Source: the human T2T-CHM13v2.0 reference genome, Homo sapiens. From it: a stretch of DNA of 64,000 nt. Made by a program: the position numbers and the translations under genes. The notes under the pieces are model-generated. The model was not told the DNA's origin. It saw nothing but the letters and a program-made list of their open reading frames with translations, and searched no databases. This document shows, piece by piece, positions 53,261 to 61,169 of this stretch (its first letter is position 1; every line of letters starts with the position of its first letter). Location: assembly GCF_009914755.1 (NCBI RefSeq), contig NC_060938.1; one strand, written 5' to 3'.

Positions 53261-54889
53261 TACATCATAGTTGATATGATCTGTTTAGAGTAAATACATT
53301 TATGCATATTGAAATTCTCTTCTCATGTTCTGCATTTATCTACATAAAAATGTAGTGTACTAAGTTTATTTAATTGACTAATTACTATTGCATTATCTTT
53401 CAGCCTTTGTCTTTTTTCTCCTTCTCTATTTGGTGGATCATTTTACTCCTCCCATTATTTTATCTGTTAATTTGACTTGGCTTTATAGTCAAATGTTCAC
53501 TCAGTTAATAATATAAAACCTTTCTGATATATTTTTGGTCGTTTTACTGTCTACACCTTAGCTAGATAATACAAAGTCGAAGACGTTTCACACTTTTTGA
53601 AACTTTCATTGCTTCTCTTAATTTTCACATAGTTTAATTTTTACTCACCTATTATTAGTCTCTGTAGAATTTGTCTCATGAAAGAACAACATCGATGCAT
53701 TTTTGGCATAGTTTTCTTTATTGCTAGGACATAGTATGCTCGGTAGTGTAGGCAATAAATTGGCTTTGTTTTAGTAACTACCAGCAAAAGTTCTACATAA
53801 CTACATAATTTAAAAAATTTTTAAGAATTGAAATCTCTCGAAATGTTGATCTTGTGAGATTACACAACGTTTACATATTAAGGTCTCAATAAAGATTTTG
53901 TTCAAATATGTTTCTAAGCCTCTTTATGGGCTTTAGATCTGTCCATATTAGTAATCTTCTTTGGAAACAGAATCAGGAAAGGACCTCTTCTAAAGACTCT
54001 TTGGGTTAAACTACCTTAAAAGAGAAGCACTCTTGTGGACCTGATAAAGGTGAATTTTGCAAGTTTTTGCGTTTTATTCAAGGCAAGGAATTTAGACAGA
54101 AGAACCATAGGAGAAACACTTGCTTTGAGTTTCTGAGTTAGGCAGAAAATGTGTTCACAGTGGCTCTGGTCTTTGTAAATATAGAACAAATTAAAGAATT
54201 AGTAGTGTAATTAATTAATAATGCTATGAGAGAACATTTCTCACTAATTCTTCTGTAACTCAGAAGTTCACACTAAAGTTGGAAGCTATGCTGCCCTGTG
54301 GAGCCCATTCCTTTTATATTGCCTGCTACTTGTTGGAGTGCCTGTCTCTGCTTGGTAAAAAGAGCATCAGGCTGAGTCTTCAGGAGGAAAACCCCAACAG
54401 TGTTTAATTAGATAGGTAAACTTCCACGTTTGATCATGCAGCTGGAAAACTTAATAGTGAATTAAATGTTGGACGTATACATTGTCATTGCCCATCTGTT
54501 TGCAACCAAACATAAACTAGAGAACACTCTCCTAGCTTCTTTACCTCACTGATAAGGTCAGAAAATGTTTGAATGGAAGCACCAGAAAGACTTTTCTGTG
54601 AGGGAAATGATTACACATGAAAGTGTAAATTCTGGTTCTGTTCATGCTAGTTTATTTTATAGTCTTCAGCTTCCTGTAGGAGAATACAATTCACTTGAAA
54701 GAAAATAGCGTAGAGGAGGAAGTGAGGAACTGCACAAGGGCAGAAATCAGCAGGGCAGTGTGGGTGATGCATGTGTGCATGCACATGTATGCGTGTAGGG
54801 AGCAGGAGAGCTGGAAATGTGGGTCAGGAATGAAATAAGAAAGGTGTTTTTTTTTTTTTTTTAAAAACACAATATTGTAAGAGTTAATA

Positions 54890-54895
54890 TTTATT
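54890..54895 (-). terminator. Polyadenylation signal used by the transducing L1 transcript
   Basis: TTTATT on + (AATAAA on -), 27 nt upstream of the poly(A) that starts at 54862. Confidence 0.85.
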
Positions 54896-54928
54896 AAAAA
54901 TTCACATGTAGTTATAGTAAATACATGA

Positions 54929-55302
<374 letters not shown>

Positions 55303-55407
55303 ACAATATTCTTAAAGTTGCTTCAGTGAGGTCACACATTTTCCCTATTATAGCTATTTCTTACAGTCTTCTTTTAAAATATAACTTTTTTTCATTATTC
55401 TTTTCAG

Positions 55408-55522
55408 TTAGGGAAAGATGGCTGTGTCTCCAAGTTTATTAACAGAGATGCTTTTGAGTTAAATCGGGAAGGATACTGGAGGTTCCTCAAAGTGCATGCT
55501 CTTGTTACAGAAGACGGAACAG
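55408..55522 (+). pseudogene. OVOS2: Isolated 115-nt exon of an ovostatin / alpha-2-macroglobulin family gene (MG3-domain region, equivalent to the A2M exon encoding LNSHGC..EEGT)
   Basis: ttcttttcAG|TTA..ACAG|GTaatg; translates LGKDGCVSKFINRDAFELNREGYWRFLKVHALVTEDGT(G), aligning without gaps over 38 aa to A2M [38 protein letters not shown]. Assignment to ovostatin is from memory; OVOS1 versus OVOS2 cannot be resolved. Confidence 0.82.
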
Positions 55523-55931
55523 GTAATGCTTTCTTTAAGAAGCCAGACCCCAATGGATATCACTGTCTCATTCGAATTGTTACCTGATTGCCAACTATAC
55601 AATGTTAATACAATCATTTTCCCTGAGGGCTTTTCACTGGGTTCGTCTGATTCAAATTCTGAATGTTTCATATATCAACCAAAATTTTCACACACATGTT
55701 GATGTATGGTCAAGTACTAAATTCAAATAAGGCTACAATAGAAGTAAGAATGCCAACTTTTTTTCCCATTAAATTTGTGATAATTTATTACACAGTAATA
55801 CAAAACAAATACAATCCCAATGCTTTATCTGAGTCATAGAAATTTTGTTCTCTAGGAAAGAAAACATAATTATATAGTTTTAGGAAAATTTACTAATTCT
55901 TATTTCTTTTTTTATTATTATTATACTTTAA

Positions 55932-58434
<2,503 letters not shown>

Positions 58435-61169
58435 ACAACGAGAACACATGGACACAGGAAGGGGAACATCACACTCTGGGGACTGTTGTGGGGTGAGGGG
58501 AGCGGGGAGGGATAGCATTAGGAGAAAGGTCTTTTTATCTATGCAGAGCAACTTGTACATTGACCTAGGCCTGCGGTTTCAGACAGTGCTCCAAGAGCCC
58601 TTTCAGGCACCTGTGTGGTAGTGGGAGGGAATGGGGCTTTGGAATCCTTATCTTCATTTCAGTCAGCGTTAATATACATATTGTATAAATTTTGTTTCTT
58701 CTTATCCTCTTTGTTAAACAAAGTGCTTTGCAGCTTTCATATTTACCCTTGGTGGTTATGCCTTTGTTCCTAGTCTGGGATAATATTTTAATTTTTGTCA
58801 TGTAGTCATTAAAACCATGTGTTACTGTCTTAGTCTATGACTTGCTTGGACCACTGTGTTTATTTTGGTGCTTCACATTCTTCTTTCCTAATAAAATAAT
58901 TTTTGATTGAATAATCAGAATGATTCCTGGGGAGGCTCTAGTCCTTTCAGCCTATCTTCCCTTTTAGGATTGCATGCCATAAAATCCTGAATATCTCTCT
59001 GAACTTTCAAATTCTTGACTTACTCTAGTCTGGACTTATATCAAGCCGTCTACTTCAACCTTTCCCTTGCTGGTCATCGTAAGCCTCTGTGTGACAGGGC
59101 CCTTGAACCCTTAAATTCATGTCACTTTTGCTTCACCAACCCATTCATTTTTTGACCTTAAGTCTCTAAATAGTTTCTAGACTTTCTTGGTGCTCAAACT
59201 ATGAAGACTTGTCCCATGCTTTGTTTGCACTGAATGAGACACAAGAGCTGATAGAGTTCCTCGTTACAACTGTGTCTATTTTGTGTCCTGTCTCAGTAGT
59301 GTATTCTAGAATGGGCTCAGGAATGTTACAATATCATCACAATACTTTTCATTTCCTTCCTCCCACTAATTTCTAGTAAAATATTATTCTTTGTTGATTT
59401 ATTTCTATTGCAATTACCTTCTACCTGCCCAGTGAGTTTTTTGTTTGCTTGTTTATTTTTTTAATAGGGTAACTCATTTTATTGTTATATTTGAAATATA
59501 GGCATATTCTAGCAATTATCAATACTACCTATATTGTCATAGTAATTAGGCTACATTACAAATTTAAGCTTGATTATTTCAATTCAATCTTGATTTTCAG
59601 GGCTATTTACATAGTTCTGCAGCTATGTTAACTTCAGCAACTATAAGTAGCATCTATGATCTTTAAAGTTGTTTCCTCATGGTAATTGTTAGATACATAC
59701 TCTCCAGTTAGATTTTCTGGTAGGCCGATGGGAGAGATATGTTGGGCAGGATAGAATTTTCAGCATTTCTCAATAGACATAGAAATGATTTTCTACTCTG
59801 TGTGCAGAGTTAAGCATTCATAATGTAGAAGTTCAGTTGAGAGGCCTCTTTTAAAAAGAGTGGCAGAAAACATGAGAAAAAAGTGGGAAAGTTTGCTAGT
59901 CTTGCACACCCTTGGGGATTTGGCATGCTTCACATGTGATAAAACTTGATTAATTTTTCTCCTTTGTGGATCACAGTTGGGGACCCCACCAGACTGAGGT
60001 ACACAATTATATTCATCCATCGCAAAACAAAACTAAAACTGTAACGAATGTATTTGAAGAGAAATATGAAAGAAATGAGATGTAGTATGACTTGTTCATT
60101 TTGGCATGGTCTTATGAAATTTGCTTTTGCTTATATAAGTAGGTTCAGTTAGAGTGGTTCTGCTACAGATGACCATTAATTACTATTTAATTTATTGGTA
60201 GTTTAAAAACCTGATTTATTTGATCAAGTGGAATGATGTAGATTATTCTTGATAAACACTAGTTCAATATTATAATTCATGCTTTTGAGGATCATGACCA
60301 GTTTATCTTTAGAAATAGACATTATCTCAGTAGATGCTTTTCCTCTCTTTTTTCCTCCTTGTTGAGATGATTTTAGCATTAGTGCTCATATGCACAGAAT
60401 GTTCACTCTCATCATTTCATTGCTCTTGATTTTGTTTTAAGTAGTGATTTTGACCCTTTTGTTTATCACTGTTTGAGGTTGTTTGTTCATTTCTAGTGTT
60501 ATTGGGGGAACTGAATGAACTAGATTGTTCTAGTTCAGCTATGTTATGGTTTCTTATATTTTAACAATACCTTCTCCATCCACCAAGGAAAATGGATGGA
60601 AACCTTCCATAGTAGGTGAGCTCTATAATGGTTTTCATCAGGTGAAAGCATGACAAAGCCTTCTGATGAGACTGAAGAGAAATATATAAATAAAAACACA
60701 ACTGCTGCTTGAGCTCTTCCTGCAGATGGCACTGGTGTTACTTGGATAAAGAACATTTTTGTGTTCAGCAGCTTTTAGTACATTGTGCACACTGGAAAGG
60801 CTCATACATACCAGGAAACTAAGTAGATGTTTTGTAATAAGTGCTCACTTATCTGTGCATGATTGAACCCCAGCATGGTTCAACCCGTCCTTTTGGAGGT
60901 CTGCTTTTCAATGAATGCATTCACATGGACAATAAAATCTGATGCAGTACTCTTTTTGACTAGGGAAGAGACCTACCACTAAAATCACATAAAAAAGTAA
61001 ACCTCCAGGACCAGTCTCCCAGTTGCATCTGCTTGAAAAATCCGGCCTAGTCTGAGAATGCATAAATATCACAGGGGTTTGAAGGGAGATATCATGATTT
61101 TTTAAAGTAAAAATATGTTATTCTGATAAAATCCTGGGAGATTTATTCTGGTAATCTTAAAAGTGAATT

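What the first reader, a model, noticed from the sequence alone, without database searches (positions are those of the whole stretch)
54838..58536. L1 3' transduction that carried an intact ovostatin/A2M-family coding exon into this locus (exon shuffling visible in the sequence)
Seen: one insertion bounded by a 14-bp TSD (AGAAAGGT[G/C]TTTTT, 13/14 identical; minus-strand cut site AT/AAAAAG). Along the L1 strand it reads: inverted L1 body, last ~120 nt of L1 with the source element's short A-tail (55902-56021), ~1.04 kb of non-L1 DNA, AATAAA (54895-54890), then 27 nt later a new poly(A) and the TSD. The non-L1 DNA holds a 115-nt, phase 0-to-1, stop-free exon with polypyrimidine-AG and GTAATG that aligns ungapped to an A2M MG3-domain exon. 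I saw no other A2M-family exon in the 64 kb. Established: L1 reads through its weak poly(A) signal and mobilises 3' flanks. Inference: the source is a full-length L1PA3/4 lying antisense in an ovostatin intron ~380 bp downstream of this exon. Because the exon was antisense in the L1 RNA, it was not spliced and kept its intronic flanks and both splice sites.
Basis: partly seen in the sequence, partly recalled or inferred. Interest (0 to 1): 0.93.

Follow-up and report, generated by a model that had tools for sequence, protein, structure and literature searches.

The report
L1 jump carrying an ovostatin exon
An old, dead L1 retrotransposon on human chromosome 14 dragged along two pieces of foreign DNA picked up in two successive jumps, the second piece holding a complete coding exon of an ovostatin gene from chromosome 12, which now sits unused in a gene desert.

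Summary
One insertion (54838-58536) is bounded by a 13/14 target-site duplication. It holds an L1 with a twin-priming inversion, then non-L1 DNA that ends in AATAAA plus a poly(A).

The non-L1 DNA has three origins, not one:
- 143 bp next to the L1 come from chr2:212.707 Mb (98%).
- About 590 bp come from chr12:31.062 Mb, separated from the chr2 piece by an A7 run.
- A 307-bp Alu inserted later; chr12 carries its empty site.

The chr12 piece holds the 115-nt exon with both splice sites. Its 38 residues match primate ovostatin-like proteins at 36/38 (residues 286-323: end of the MG3 domain plus linker).

Best reading, about 0.85: a two-generation 3' transduction, chr2 to an ovostatin intron to chr14. 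Both progenitor L1s are absent from this genome, and both donor sites read as clean empty sites with L1-endonuclease-like junctions. The flanks are unique to chr14, so this is not a segmental duplication. No gene is annotated at the destination, so the exon was moved but not shown to be reused.

The human parent exon now carries an in-frame TGA where the chr14 copy and 8 of 8 homologues have Leu.

This is a clean new example of a known mechanism, of moderate interest.

The parts
54838..54851 (.). Left copy of the 14-bp target-site duplication (AGAAAGGTGTTTTT)
   Evidence: Read directly. Pattern search: 2 matches in the window, 0.31 expected.
54852..54862 (-). Terminal poly(A) of the inserted RNA, seen as a T run on the + strand. 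Up to 6 of the A's could be templated by chr12.
   Evidence: chr12 reads TTTTTTAAAACAC at the matching place.
54863..54995 (-). Distal part of the chr12 (ovostatin intron) tag. It holds the polyadenylation signal AATAAA (54890-54895 as TTTATT) used by the second read-through.
   Evidence: 54857-54995 matches L002 2089-1950 at 91.7%; matches chr12:31062331-31062453 (-) at 90%; 4 mismatches in 123 aligned bases.
54996..55302 (-). Alu that inserted after the L1 event. Its own TSD is ACAATATTCTT, at 54985-54995 and 55303-55313.
   Evidence: chr12 has a single ACAATATTCTT with the two flanks contiguous (L002 1950-1960 overlap). The family name AluY is recalled, not tested.
55303..55757 (-). Proximal part of the chr12 tag: about 95 bp of upstream intron, the exon, and about 235 bp of downstream intron.
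   Evidence: chr12:31061871-31062319 (-) at 95%; 95.0% over 463 columns; 17 mismatches in 449 aligned bases.
55408..55522 (+). Complete 115-nt ovostatin coding exon (38 codons plus 1 base), antisense to the L1. The AG acceptor with its polypyrimidine tract and the GTAATG donor are kept.
   Evidence: translation; 8 ovostatin-like proteins at 71-95%; 36/38 to the Pongo protein P0002; corresponds to P0002 residues 286-323.
55758..55764 (-). Internal A7 run: remnant of the poly(A) tail of the first transduction event. It sits at the junction with chr12.
   Evidence: chr12 reads GCCAATTT/ATTGA at the junction, so up to 3 of the 7 could be target T's.
55765..55907 (-). chr2 tag from the first-generation transduction. 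On the L1 strand it has its own AATAAA 19 nt before the A7 run.
   Evidence: chr2:212707044-212707180 (+) at 98%; 55765-55907 at 97.9% over 143; 3 mismatches in 137, no gaps; chr2 is contiguous with no poly(A), so it is the donor.
55908..56021 (-). Last ~115 nt of the L1 3' UTR, with a short A tail (6-7 A).
   Evidence: segment B matches the 3' ends of 5 of 5 other L1 copies at 93.7-98.3%.
56022..58522 (+). Inverted L1 body (ORF2 from the reverse-transcriptase region to the start of the 3' UTR). The reading frame is broken into several pieces.
   Evidence: 95.3-96.4% to other L1 copies. RVT_1 on the + strand; 9-12 nt of L1 are missing at the inversion junction. The 3-nt AGA overlap with the TSD at 58523-58525 comes from the alignment end at 58525.
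58523..58536 (.). Right copy of the target-site duplication (AGAAAGGTCTTTTT)

Best explanation
This is the fixed, dead product of a two-generation L1 3' transduction.

1. A full-length L1 once sat at chr2:212.707 Mb. Its transcript ran through the weak L1 poly(A) signal and ended 143 nt downstream, at an AATAAA in the chr2 flank.
2. That RNA inserted, antisense, into an intron of the ovostatin gene at chr12:31.0619 Mb, about 241 bp downstream of a coding exon.
3. This second L1 was transcribed in turn. Its transcript ran through both earlier poly(A) sites and about 590 nt of chr12 DNA, crossing the exon on the antisense strand, so the exon was not spliced out. It ended at an AATAAA in the upstream intron.
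4. That RNA was inserted on chr14 by target-primed reverse transcription at a TTTTT/AT nick. A second priming event from the other target strand (twin priming) inverted 2.5 kb of the L1 body.
5. An Alu later landed inside the chr12 tag.

Shown: the anatomy, the three origins, the empty donor sites and the identity of the exon. Inferred: the order of events, the former existence of the two progenitor L1s, and the age. The age is roughly that of the great-ape radiation, with about 1-1.7% change per lineage.

The exon has no demonstrated use at its new site.
For: **One TPRT insertion.** A 13/14 TSD sits exactly at the two ends, with a TTTTT/AT nick site and a terminal poly(A) 27 nt after AATAAA.

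**Twin priming.**
- The L1 3' end is on the minus strand and the L1 body on the plus strand, both within one TSD.
- 9-12 nt of L1 are missing at the internal junction.
- There is a 3-nt AGA overlap between the L1 and the TSD at the outer end.

**Two tags from two chromosomes.**
- 55765-55907 matches chr2:212707044-212707180 at 98%.
- 55303-55763 and 54857-54995 match chr12:31061871-31062453.
- Neither tag has any further long copy in the genome. Of the 20 rows, one is the window itself, two are the donors, and the other 17 are 40-59-bp partial matches.

**Each tag ends as a polyadenylated read-through should.**
- The chr2 tag has AATAAA 19 nt before the A7 run.
- The chr12 tag has AATAAA 27 nt before the terminal tail.

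**Both donor loci read straight through, with no poly(A) and no L1.**
- Their junctions fall at L1-endonuclease-like sites: chr12 ATTT/AT and chr2 TTCT/AT.
- TTT/A sites make up only 39 of 3449 positions (1.1%) of the chr12 locus on that strand.

**The divergence of the two tags is compatible with one age.** chr12 differs at 21/572 and chr2 at 3/137 (Fisher p 0.60). The L1 body has 12 private changes in 1282 columns, similar to the 10-21 seen in four related copies.

**Flanks.** Both flanks outside the TSDs hit only chr14.

**Exon identity.**
- 8 of 8 database hits are ovostatin-like proteins.
- The chr12 locus holds matches to residues 24-671 of the Pongo protein in order on the minus strand, 11 rows.
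- MG3 exons lie 3 and 8 kb upstream of the parent exon.

**Published precedent.** A chain of transductions that leaves two tags is described in PMC13009371 (passages seen).
Against: - **Neither progenitor L1 is present in this genome.** The chr2 and chr12 sites are empty, so the two intermediate steps are inferred, not seen.
- **The internal A runs are very short.** They are 6-7 nt at the L1 end and at most 7 nt between the tags.
- **The chr12 junction needs a substitution.** One T-to-C change (55757) is required to read as ATTT/AT.
- **The divergence order is not what the model predicts.** The chr2 tag is nominally less diverged (2.2%) than the chr12 tag (3.7%), though it should be the older event. 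The difference is not significant.
- **No outgroup genome was available.** Presence or absence at the chr14 site in other primates, and therefore the date, is untested.
- **The 38-residue peptide alone is weak evidence of family.** It matched no Pfam family and no solved A2M-family structure. Its family assignment rests on full-length ovostatin-like proteins.
Confidence: 0.85

Rival explanations
1. Template switching during one reverse-transcription event. Reverse transcription began on a polyadenylated RNA antisense to the ovostatin intron. At a T-rich point, the enzyme jumped to the poly(A) tail of a separate L1 read-through RNA from chr2. On this reading no L1 ever sat in the ovostatin intron.
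For: - The chr12 site is empty in this genome.
- The A run between the tags is only 7 nt at most.
- The cDNA end ...CCAATTT would pair with a poly(A) tail.
- L1 chimeras formed by template switching are described in the literature (recalled, not read here).
Against: - It needs an independent, polyadenylated antisense transcript of an ovostatin intron that L1 proteins captured in trans.
- The junction falls on a TTT/A site, which covers only 1.1% of positions there, as endonuclease nicking predicts.
- The chr2 site is empty as well, so a lost progenitor has to be assumed in any case.
Confidence: 0.09
2. One L1 in the ovostatin intron, about 380 bp from the exon, transduced about 1.04 kb of contiguous ovostatin DNA.
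For: The terminal AATAAA, the poly(A), the TSD and the ovostatin exon are all as described.
Against: - 55765-55907 matches chr2 at 98% and does not match chr12. chr12 diverges completely beyond GCCAA(TTT).
- The Alu is absent from chr12.
Confidence: 0.02
3. DNA-level duplication (segmental duplication or repair patch) of ovostatin DNA into chr14 next to a pre-existing L1.
For: None beyond the shared sequence.
Against: - The shared DNA stops exactly at a poly(A) on one side and at an A run on the other.
- One TSD encloses the L1 plus both tags.
- Flanks of 738 and 764 bp outside the TSDs match only chr14.
Confidence: 0.01

Closest known systems
L1 3' transduction (Moran 1999, Goodier 2000 and Pickeral 2000, seen only as references in PMC9311842; survey of 3202 genomes in PMC9311842, passages)
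   Same: Read-through of the L1 poly(A) signal. Unique 3' flank carried behind the L1. A downstream AATAAA, a new poly(A), and one TSD around everything.
   Different: This is an old, fixed insertion whose donor elements are gone. The carried DNA includes a whole coding exon with both splice sites.
Multigenerational (serial) transduction and L1 transduction families (PMC13009371 section 10, passages; PMC6425141, passages)
   Same: Two tags in tandem behind one L1. The tag next to the L1 comes from the older donor and the outer tag from the intermediate insertion.
   Different: The published cases read here are young (germline-polymorphic or somatic), and their donors are still present. Here the chain is millions of years old, and both donors are represented only by empty sites.
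Twin-priming inversion of L1 (Ostertag and Kazazian 2001; seen only as a reference in PMC4859970; mechanism recalled)
   Same: A 5'-truncated L1 in two opposed segments inside one TSD. A small deletion (9-12 nt) at the internal junction. Microhomology (AGA) where the second primer annealed.
   Different: The first cDNA had to cross about 740 nt of transduced RNA before it reached the L1.
Natural exon mobilisation by retroelements: dispersed CFTR exon 9 copies, an ATM exon, and SVA-transduced AMAC1 copies (all recalled, no paper read here)
   Same: Genomic copies of a coding exon or gene moved through an L1-driven RNA step.
   Different: A different gene and locus. No sign here that the moved exon is expressed. 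Whether those cases include two-step chains is not known to me.

Membership tests
L1 3' transduction inserted by target-primed reverse transcription | One target-site duplication encloses the L1 plus the non-L1 DNA | tested here: met
   A 13/14 TSD at 54838-54851 and 58523-58536. These are the only 2 matches in the window.
L1 3' transduction inserted by target-primed reverse transcription | The non-L1 DNA starts right after the L1 3' end and tail, and ends in a poly(A) preceded by a polyadenylation signal | tested here: met
   The L1 3' end at 55908-56021 is followed by the tags. AATAAA at 54890-54895 lies 27 nt before the tail.
L1 3' transduction inserted by target-primed reverse transcription | The carried DNA matches a unique locus elsewhere, and that locus lacks the poly(A) | tested here: met
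   chr2:212707044-212707180 at 98% and chr12:31061871-31062453 at 90-95%. Both are contiguous with their own flanks.
L1 3' transduction inserted by target-primed reverse transcription | A full-length source L1 lies directly upstream of the donor sequence | tested here: not met
   There is no L1 at either donor junction in this assembly. Lost, never-fixed progenitors explain this, but it is an inference.
L1 3' transduction inserted by target-primed reverse transcription | An endonuclease-type nick site (TTTT/A-like) at the target | tested here: met
   chr14 TTTTT/AT, chr12 ATTT/AT, chr2 TTCT/AT. The background frequency of TTT/A sites is 1.1%.
Serial (two-generation) transduction | Two tags from different loci in tandem, separated by an A run, each with its own poly(A) signal | tested here: met
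   chr2 tag, then A7, then chr12 tag. AATAAA lies 19 nt and 27 nt before the respective A runs.
Twin-priming L1 inversion | Two L1 segments in opposite orientation within one TSD, nearly contiguous in L1 coordinates, with a small deletion or duplication at the junction | tested here: met
   In 5 of 5 related L1 copies, the inverted body ends 9-12 nt before the point where the 3' segment starts.
Ovostatin / alpha-2-macroglobulin family coding exon | The translation matches family proteins in the frame bounded by the splice sites | tested here: met
   8 of 8 hits are ovostatin-like proteins at 71-95%. It aligns ungapped at 36/38 to Pongo residues 286-323.
Ovostatin / alpha-2-macroglobulin family coding exon | The exon lies in the MG3 domain | tested here: inconclusive
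   The peptide alone hits no Pfam family and no A2M structure. By position in P0002 it covers residues 286-304 of the MG3 match (216-304) and then the linker before MG4 (342-435).
Exon shuffling (moved exon used by a gene at the new site) | The exon is spliced into a transcript at the destination | not testable with these tools
   The hub's RefSeq table lists no gene over 54838-58536. None of the 8 database proteins has the two residues private to chr14. No RNA data were available.

The most novel reading that the evidence does not exclude
The exon still has an open frame and both splice sites. It could be spliced into an unannotated chr14 transcript in some tissue or in some ape lineage. That would make this a completed, natural case of exon shuffling by a traceable two-step L1 chain.

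A weaker but likelier version: the chr14 copy is a dated snapshot of the ovostatin exon before the human gene acquired its in-frame TGA.
Probability: 0.04. Interest if true: 0.75.

Novelty: new member of a known kind. Interest (0 to 1): 0.4.

Why it matters
L1 3' transduction was proposed long ago as a way to move exons between genes. Fixed germline examples that carry a whole coding exon with both splice sites are rarely shown base by base.

This one is unusually legible. The TSD, the twin-priming inversion, two successive tags with their own poly(A) signals, three endonuclease-like junctions and a later Alu together record at least four retrotransposition events in 3.7 kb. They also trace an L1 lineage through two progenitors that no longer exist.

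The case does not show new biology. The exon sits in a gene desert with no evidence of use.

The copy also preserves the ancestral Leu codon at the place where the human chr12 exon now has a stop codon. That is a small aid for dating the decay of the human ovostatin gene.

Tried and rejected
- **Direct family assignment of the 38-aa peptide.** The PDB sequence search gave only chance hits to HigB toxins (E 0.057 and worse). Pfam gave 0 families at E up to 10. The assignment came from full-length proteins instead.
- **Other A2M exons in the window.** None were found. Genome scans with the MG3 and A2M Pfam families gave no chr14 row among 24 and 18 rows.
- **Sibling insertions carrying either tag.** None were found in this genome. 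The 17 short extra rows (82-93%, 40-59 bp) all map to query 445-507. They look like an old repeat inside the chr2 tag and were not pursued.
- **Segmental duplication.** Rejected.
- **An apparent age conflict.** BLAST gave 95%/91.7% for chr12 against 98% for chr2. The conflict dissolved on global alignment, which gave 3.7% against 2.2% substitutions (p 0.60). The lower BLAST figures counted gap columns.
- **L1 subfamily.** No repeat library was available. I compared the element with 4-5 related copies only and did not assign a subfamily.
- **Literature search for this event.** 'ovostatin' + 'retrotransposon' gave 1 unrelated paper. 'OVOS2' + 'transduction' + 'LINE-1' gave 0 papers. These searches do not cover subscription journals or supplementary tables of transduction surveys, which I did not open. 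The event may be listed there.
- **Pickeral 2000 (PMC310862).** Not held.
- Row 2 used chr12 coordinates off by two bases and is out of frame, so it should be disregarded. It was redone correctly.
Full report
**What is in the sequence**

On the + strand, 54838-54851 reads AGAAAGGTGTTTTT and 58523-58536 reads AGAAAGGTCTTTTT. With one mismatch allowed, these are the only two matches in the 64-kb window, against 0.31 expected from shuffles. They sit exactly at the two ends of one inserted unit.

Read along the minus strand, which is the L1 sense strand, the unit is as follows:

| Window coordinates | Content |
|---|---|
| 58522-56022 | 2.5 kb of L1 body, inverted, so it reads as L1 sense on the + strand |
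| 56021 to about 55908 | Last ~115 nt of the L1 3' UTR, with a 6-7 nt A tail |
| 55907-55765 | 143 bp of non-L1 DNA (chr2 tag) |
| 55764-55758 | A7 run |
| 55757-55303 | 455 bp of non-L1 DNA (chr12 tag, proximal part) |
| 55302-54996 | An Alu |
| 54995-54863 | 133 bp of non-L1 DNA (chr12 tag, distal part) holding AATAAA at 54895-54890 |
| 54862-54852 | Poly(A), 27 nt after the AATAAA |
| 54851-54838 | The other TSD copy |

**The L1**

- The + strand of 55932-56881 gives two open-frame pieces that match the reverse-transcriptase family RVT_1, with E 6.6e-17 and 5.2e-19. This is 2 of the 4 pieces tested. The frame is broken into several pieces, so the copy is dead.
- I compared the element with five other L1 copies fetched from the same genome. 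The body matches them at 95.3-96.4% and the 3' segment at 93.7-98.3%.
- In all five copies, the body segment ends 9-12 nt before the point where the 3' segment begins.
- The alignment of the body runs 3 nt (AGA) into the TSD.

Two opposed segments within one TSD, a small internal deletion and microhomology at the second priming site are the marks of twin priming. That mechanism is recalled; Ostertag and Kazazian 2001 was seen only as a reference.

**Where the non-L1 DNA comes from**

I searched the window's own genome with 55314-55901. It returned the window itself, chr12:31061871-31062319 (minus strand, 95%, query 1-449) and chr2:212707044-212707180 (plus strand, 98%, query 452-588). The remaining 17 rows were short partial matches of 40-59 bp.

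BLAST of 54600-58800 against the two fetched loci refined this:
- 55303-55763 and 54857-54995 match chr12. The two chr12 stretches overlap by about 11 bp.
- 55765-55907 matches chr2.
- No L1 match appears in either locus.
- 54863-54984 has only the chr12 match elsewhere in the genome.

So the '1.04 kb' has three origins.

The Alu is flanked by ACAATATTCTT at 54985-54995 and 55303-55313. chr12 holds one copy of that word with the flanks joined. The Alu therefore entered the chr14 copy after the event.

**The junctions**

- **chr2.** The donor reads ...TTACTAATTCTTATTTCT|ATCCAATGG. In the window, the same word is followed by the L1 tail. At the other end of the tag, chr2 continues into unrelated DNA with no A run, while the window has A7. 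On the L1 strand, the tag has AATAAA 19 nt before that A7.
- **chr12.** The donor reads ...GAATGCCAATTT|ATTGATT. The window reads GAATGCCAAC followed by TTTTTTT and then the chr2 tag. With one T/C difference, the junction is ATTT/AT.
- **chr14.** The target is TTTTT/AT.

All three junctions resemble the L1 endonuclease site. On the relevant strand of the chr12 locus, TTT/A occurs at 39 of 3449 positions, or 1.1%.

Both donor loci are thus clean empty sites of L1 insertions that are no longer present.

**The most economical account**

An L1 at chr2 read through into 143 nt of flank. That RNA inserted into chr12. The new L1 then read through its own tail, the chr2 tag and about 590 nt of chr12, and that RNA inserted on chr14.

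A chain of this kind, leaving two tags, has been described for a reference-to-germline-to-somatic series (PMC13009371, passages). Transduction families are well documented (PMC6425141, passages).

**The exon**

- 55408-55522 translates without a stop to LGKDGCVSKFINRDAFELNREGYWRFLKVHALVTEDGT.
- It is preceded by a polypyrimidine tract and AG, and followed by GTAATG.
- Alone, it matched no Pfam family and only chance hits in the PDB.
- A 42-residue window translation was searched among longer proteins. It found 8 proteins out of 8 candidates, all named ovostatin or ovostatin-like, from Pongo, Pan, Callithrix, Cynocephalus and three rodents, at 71-95% identity.
- The exon aligns without gaps to residues 286-323 of the 1451-aa Pongo protein, at 36/38.
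- In that protein, Pfam places MG3 at 216-304 and MG4 at 342-435. The exon therefore encodes the end of MG3 and the linker.

On chr12, the Pongo protein matches residues 24-671 in order on the minus strand between 31.048 and 31.078 Mb, in 11 rows. MG3 exons lie at 31070539 and 31065088, upstream of the parent exon at 31062112-31062225.

OVOS2 is placed at 12p11.21 in print (PMC2736806, passages). I did not see an annotation of CHM13 at this spot, so the gene name is a likely assignment and not a verified one.

The window holds no other A2M-family match.

**Parent against copy**

The two exons differ at 5 of 115 bases.
- The chr14 copy has two private replacements, Thr13 to Arg and Ser25 to Arg. 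Among the 8 homologues, 8 have Thr at position 13; at position 25, 7 have Ser and 1 has Asn.
- The human chr12 exon has TGA where the chr14 copy and 8 of 8 homologues have Leu.
- The remaining two differences are synonymous.

This pattern is what neutral decay of the copy would give. The stop on chr12 arose after the copy was made.

**Age**

- Global alignments give 21 substitutions in 572 aligned bases for chr12 against chr14.
- They give 3 in 137 for chr2 against chr14. The two figures do not differ significantly (Fisher p 0.60).
- The L1 body has 12 private changes in 1282 ungapped columns. Four related copies have 10-21, and 13 further variable columns were left unassigned.
- This comes to about 1-1.7% change per lineage. 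By recalled primate divergences, that places the event after the split from Old World monkeys and near the great-ape radiation.

**Alternatives**

- **Segmental duplication.** Excluded. The 738 bp left and 764 bp right of the TSDs match only chr14.
Excluded by the chr2 origin of the proximal tag.
- **Template switching.** A jump from an antisense ovostatin-intron RNA to an L1-chr2 RNA cannot be excluded, because the chr12 intermediate is not seen. It requires an extra, unobserved transcript, and it does not predict an endonuclease-like junction. I put it near 0.09.

**What it amounts to**

This is a real and very readable case of exon mobilisation by L1, with a two-step pedigree. It is not a case of exon shuffling in the functional sense.
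- No gene is annotated at the site (hub table).
- No database protein carries the residues private to the copy.
- No expression data could be consulted.

I found no paper that names this event. Subscription journals and supplementary tables of transduction catalogues were not searched.

Noticed in passing
G000 chr12:31062112-31062225 (minus); locus L002 1742-1855: The human parent exon of the ovostatin gene has an in-frame TGA at codon 18. The chr14 copy and 8 of 8 ovostatin-like proteins from other mammals have Leu there. Whether this stop is fixed in humans is unknown.
   Followed up: partly
G000 chr12:31.005-31.078 Mb (minus): Two A2M-family gene parts lie in tandem. Exons at 31.048-31.078 Mb match residues 24-671 of the Pongo ovostatin-like protein at 63-97%. 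A second set at 31.007-31.035 Mb matches at only 45-55%. No high-identity match to residues 672-1451 was listed, but that search used a stricter first look and may have missed rows.
   Followed up: partly
G000 chr7:9856444-9858996 (+); locus L018 3445-5997: An intronless 850-codon frame with one stop carries the MG1, MG2, MG3, MG4 and bait-region domains. It is a processed copy of the multi-exon gene at chr19:17.11-17.13 Mb, at 77-96% identity. I recall that gene as CPAMD8. The last ~65 residues of the frame match many loci and look like a repeat. It is an ordinary processed pseudogene.
   Followed up: yes
window 55765-55820: The first ~55 bp of the chr2 tag have 17 short matches (82-93%) scattered over the genome. 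This suggests an old interspersed repeat inside the tag. Its family was not identified.
   Followed up: no
window 54985-55313: The Alu inside the transduced DNA has a perfect 11-bp TSD and a TCTT/AA nick site. It gives a minimum-age marker for the L1 insertion. Its subfamily was not determined.
   Followed up: partly
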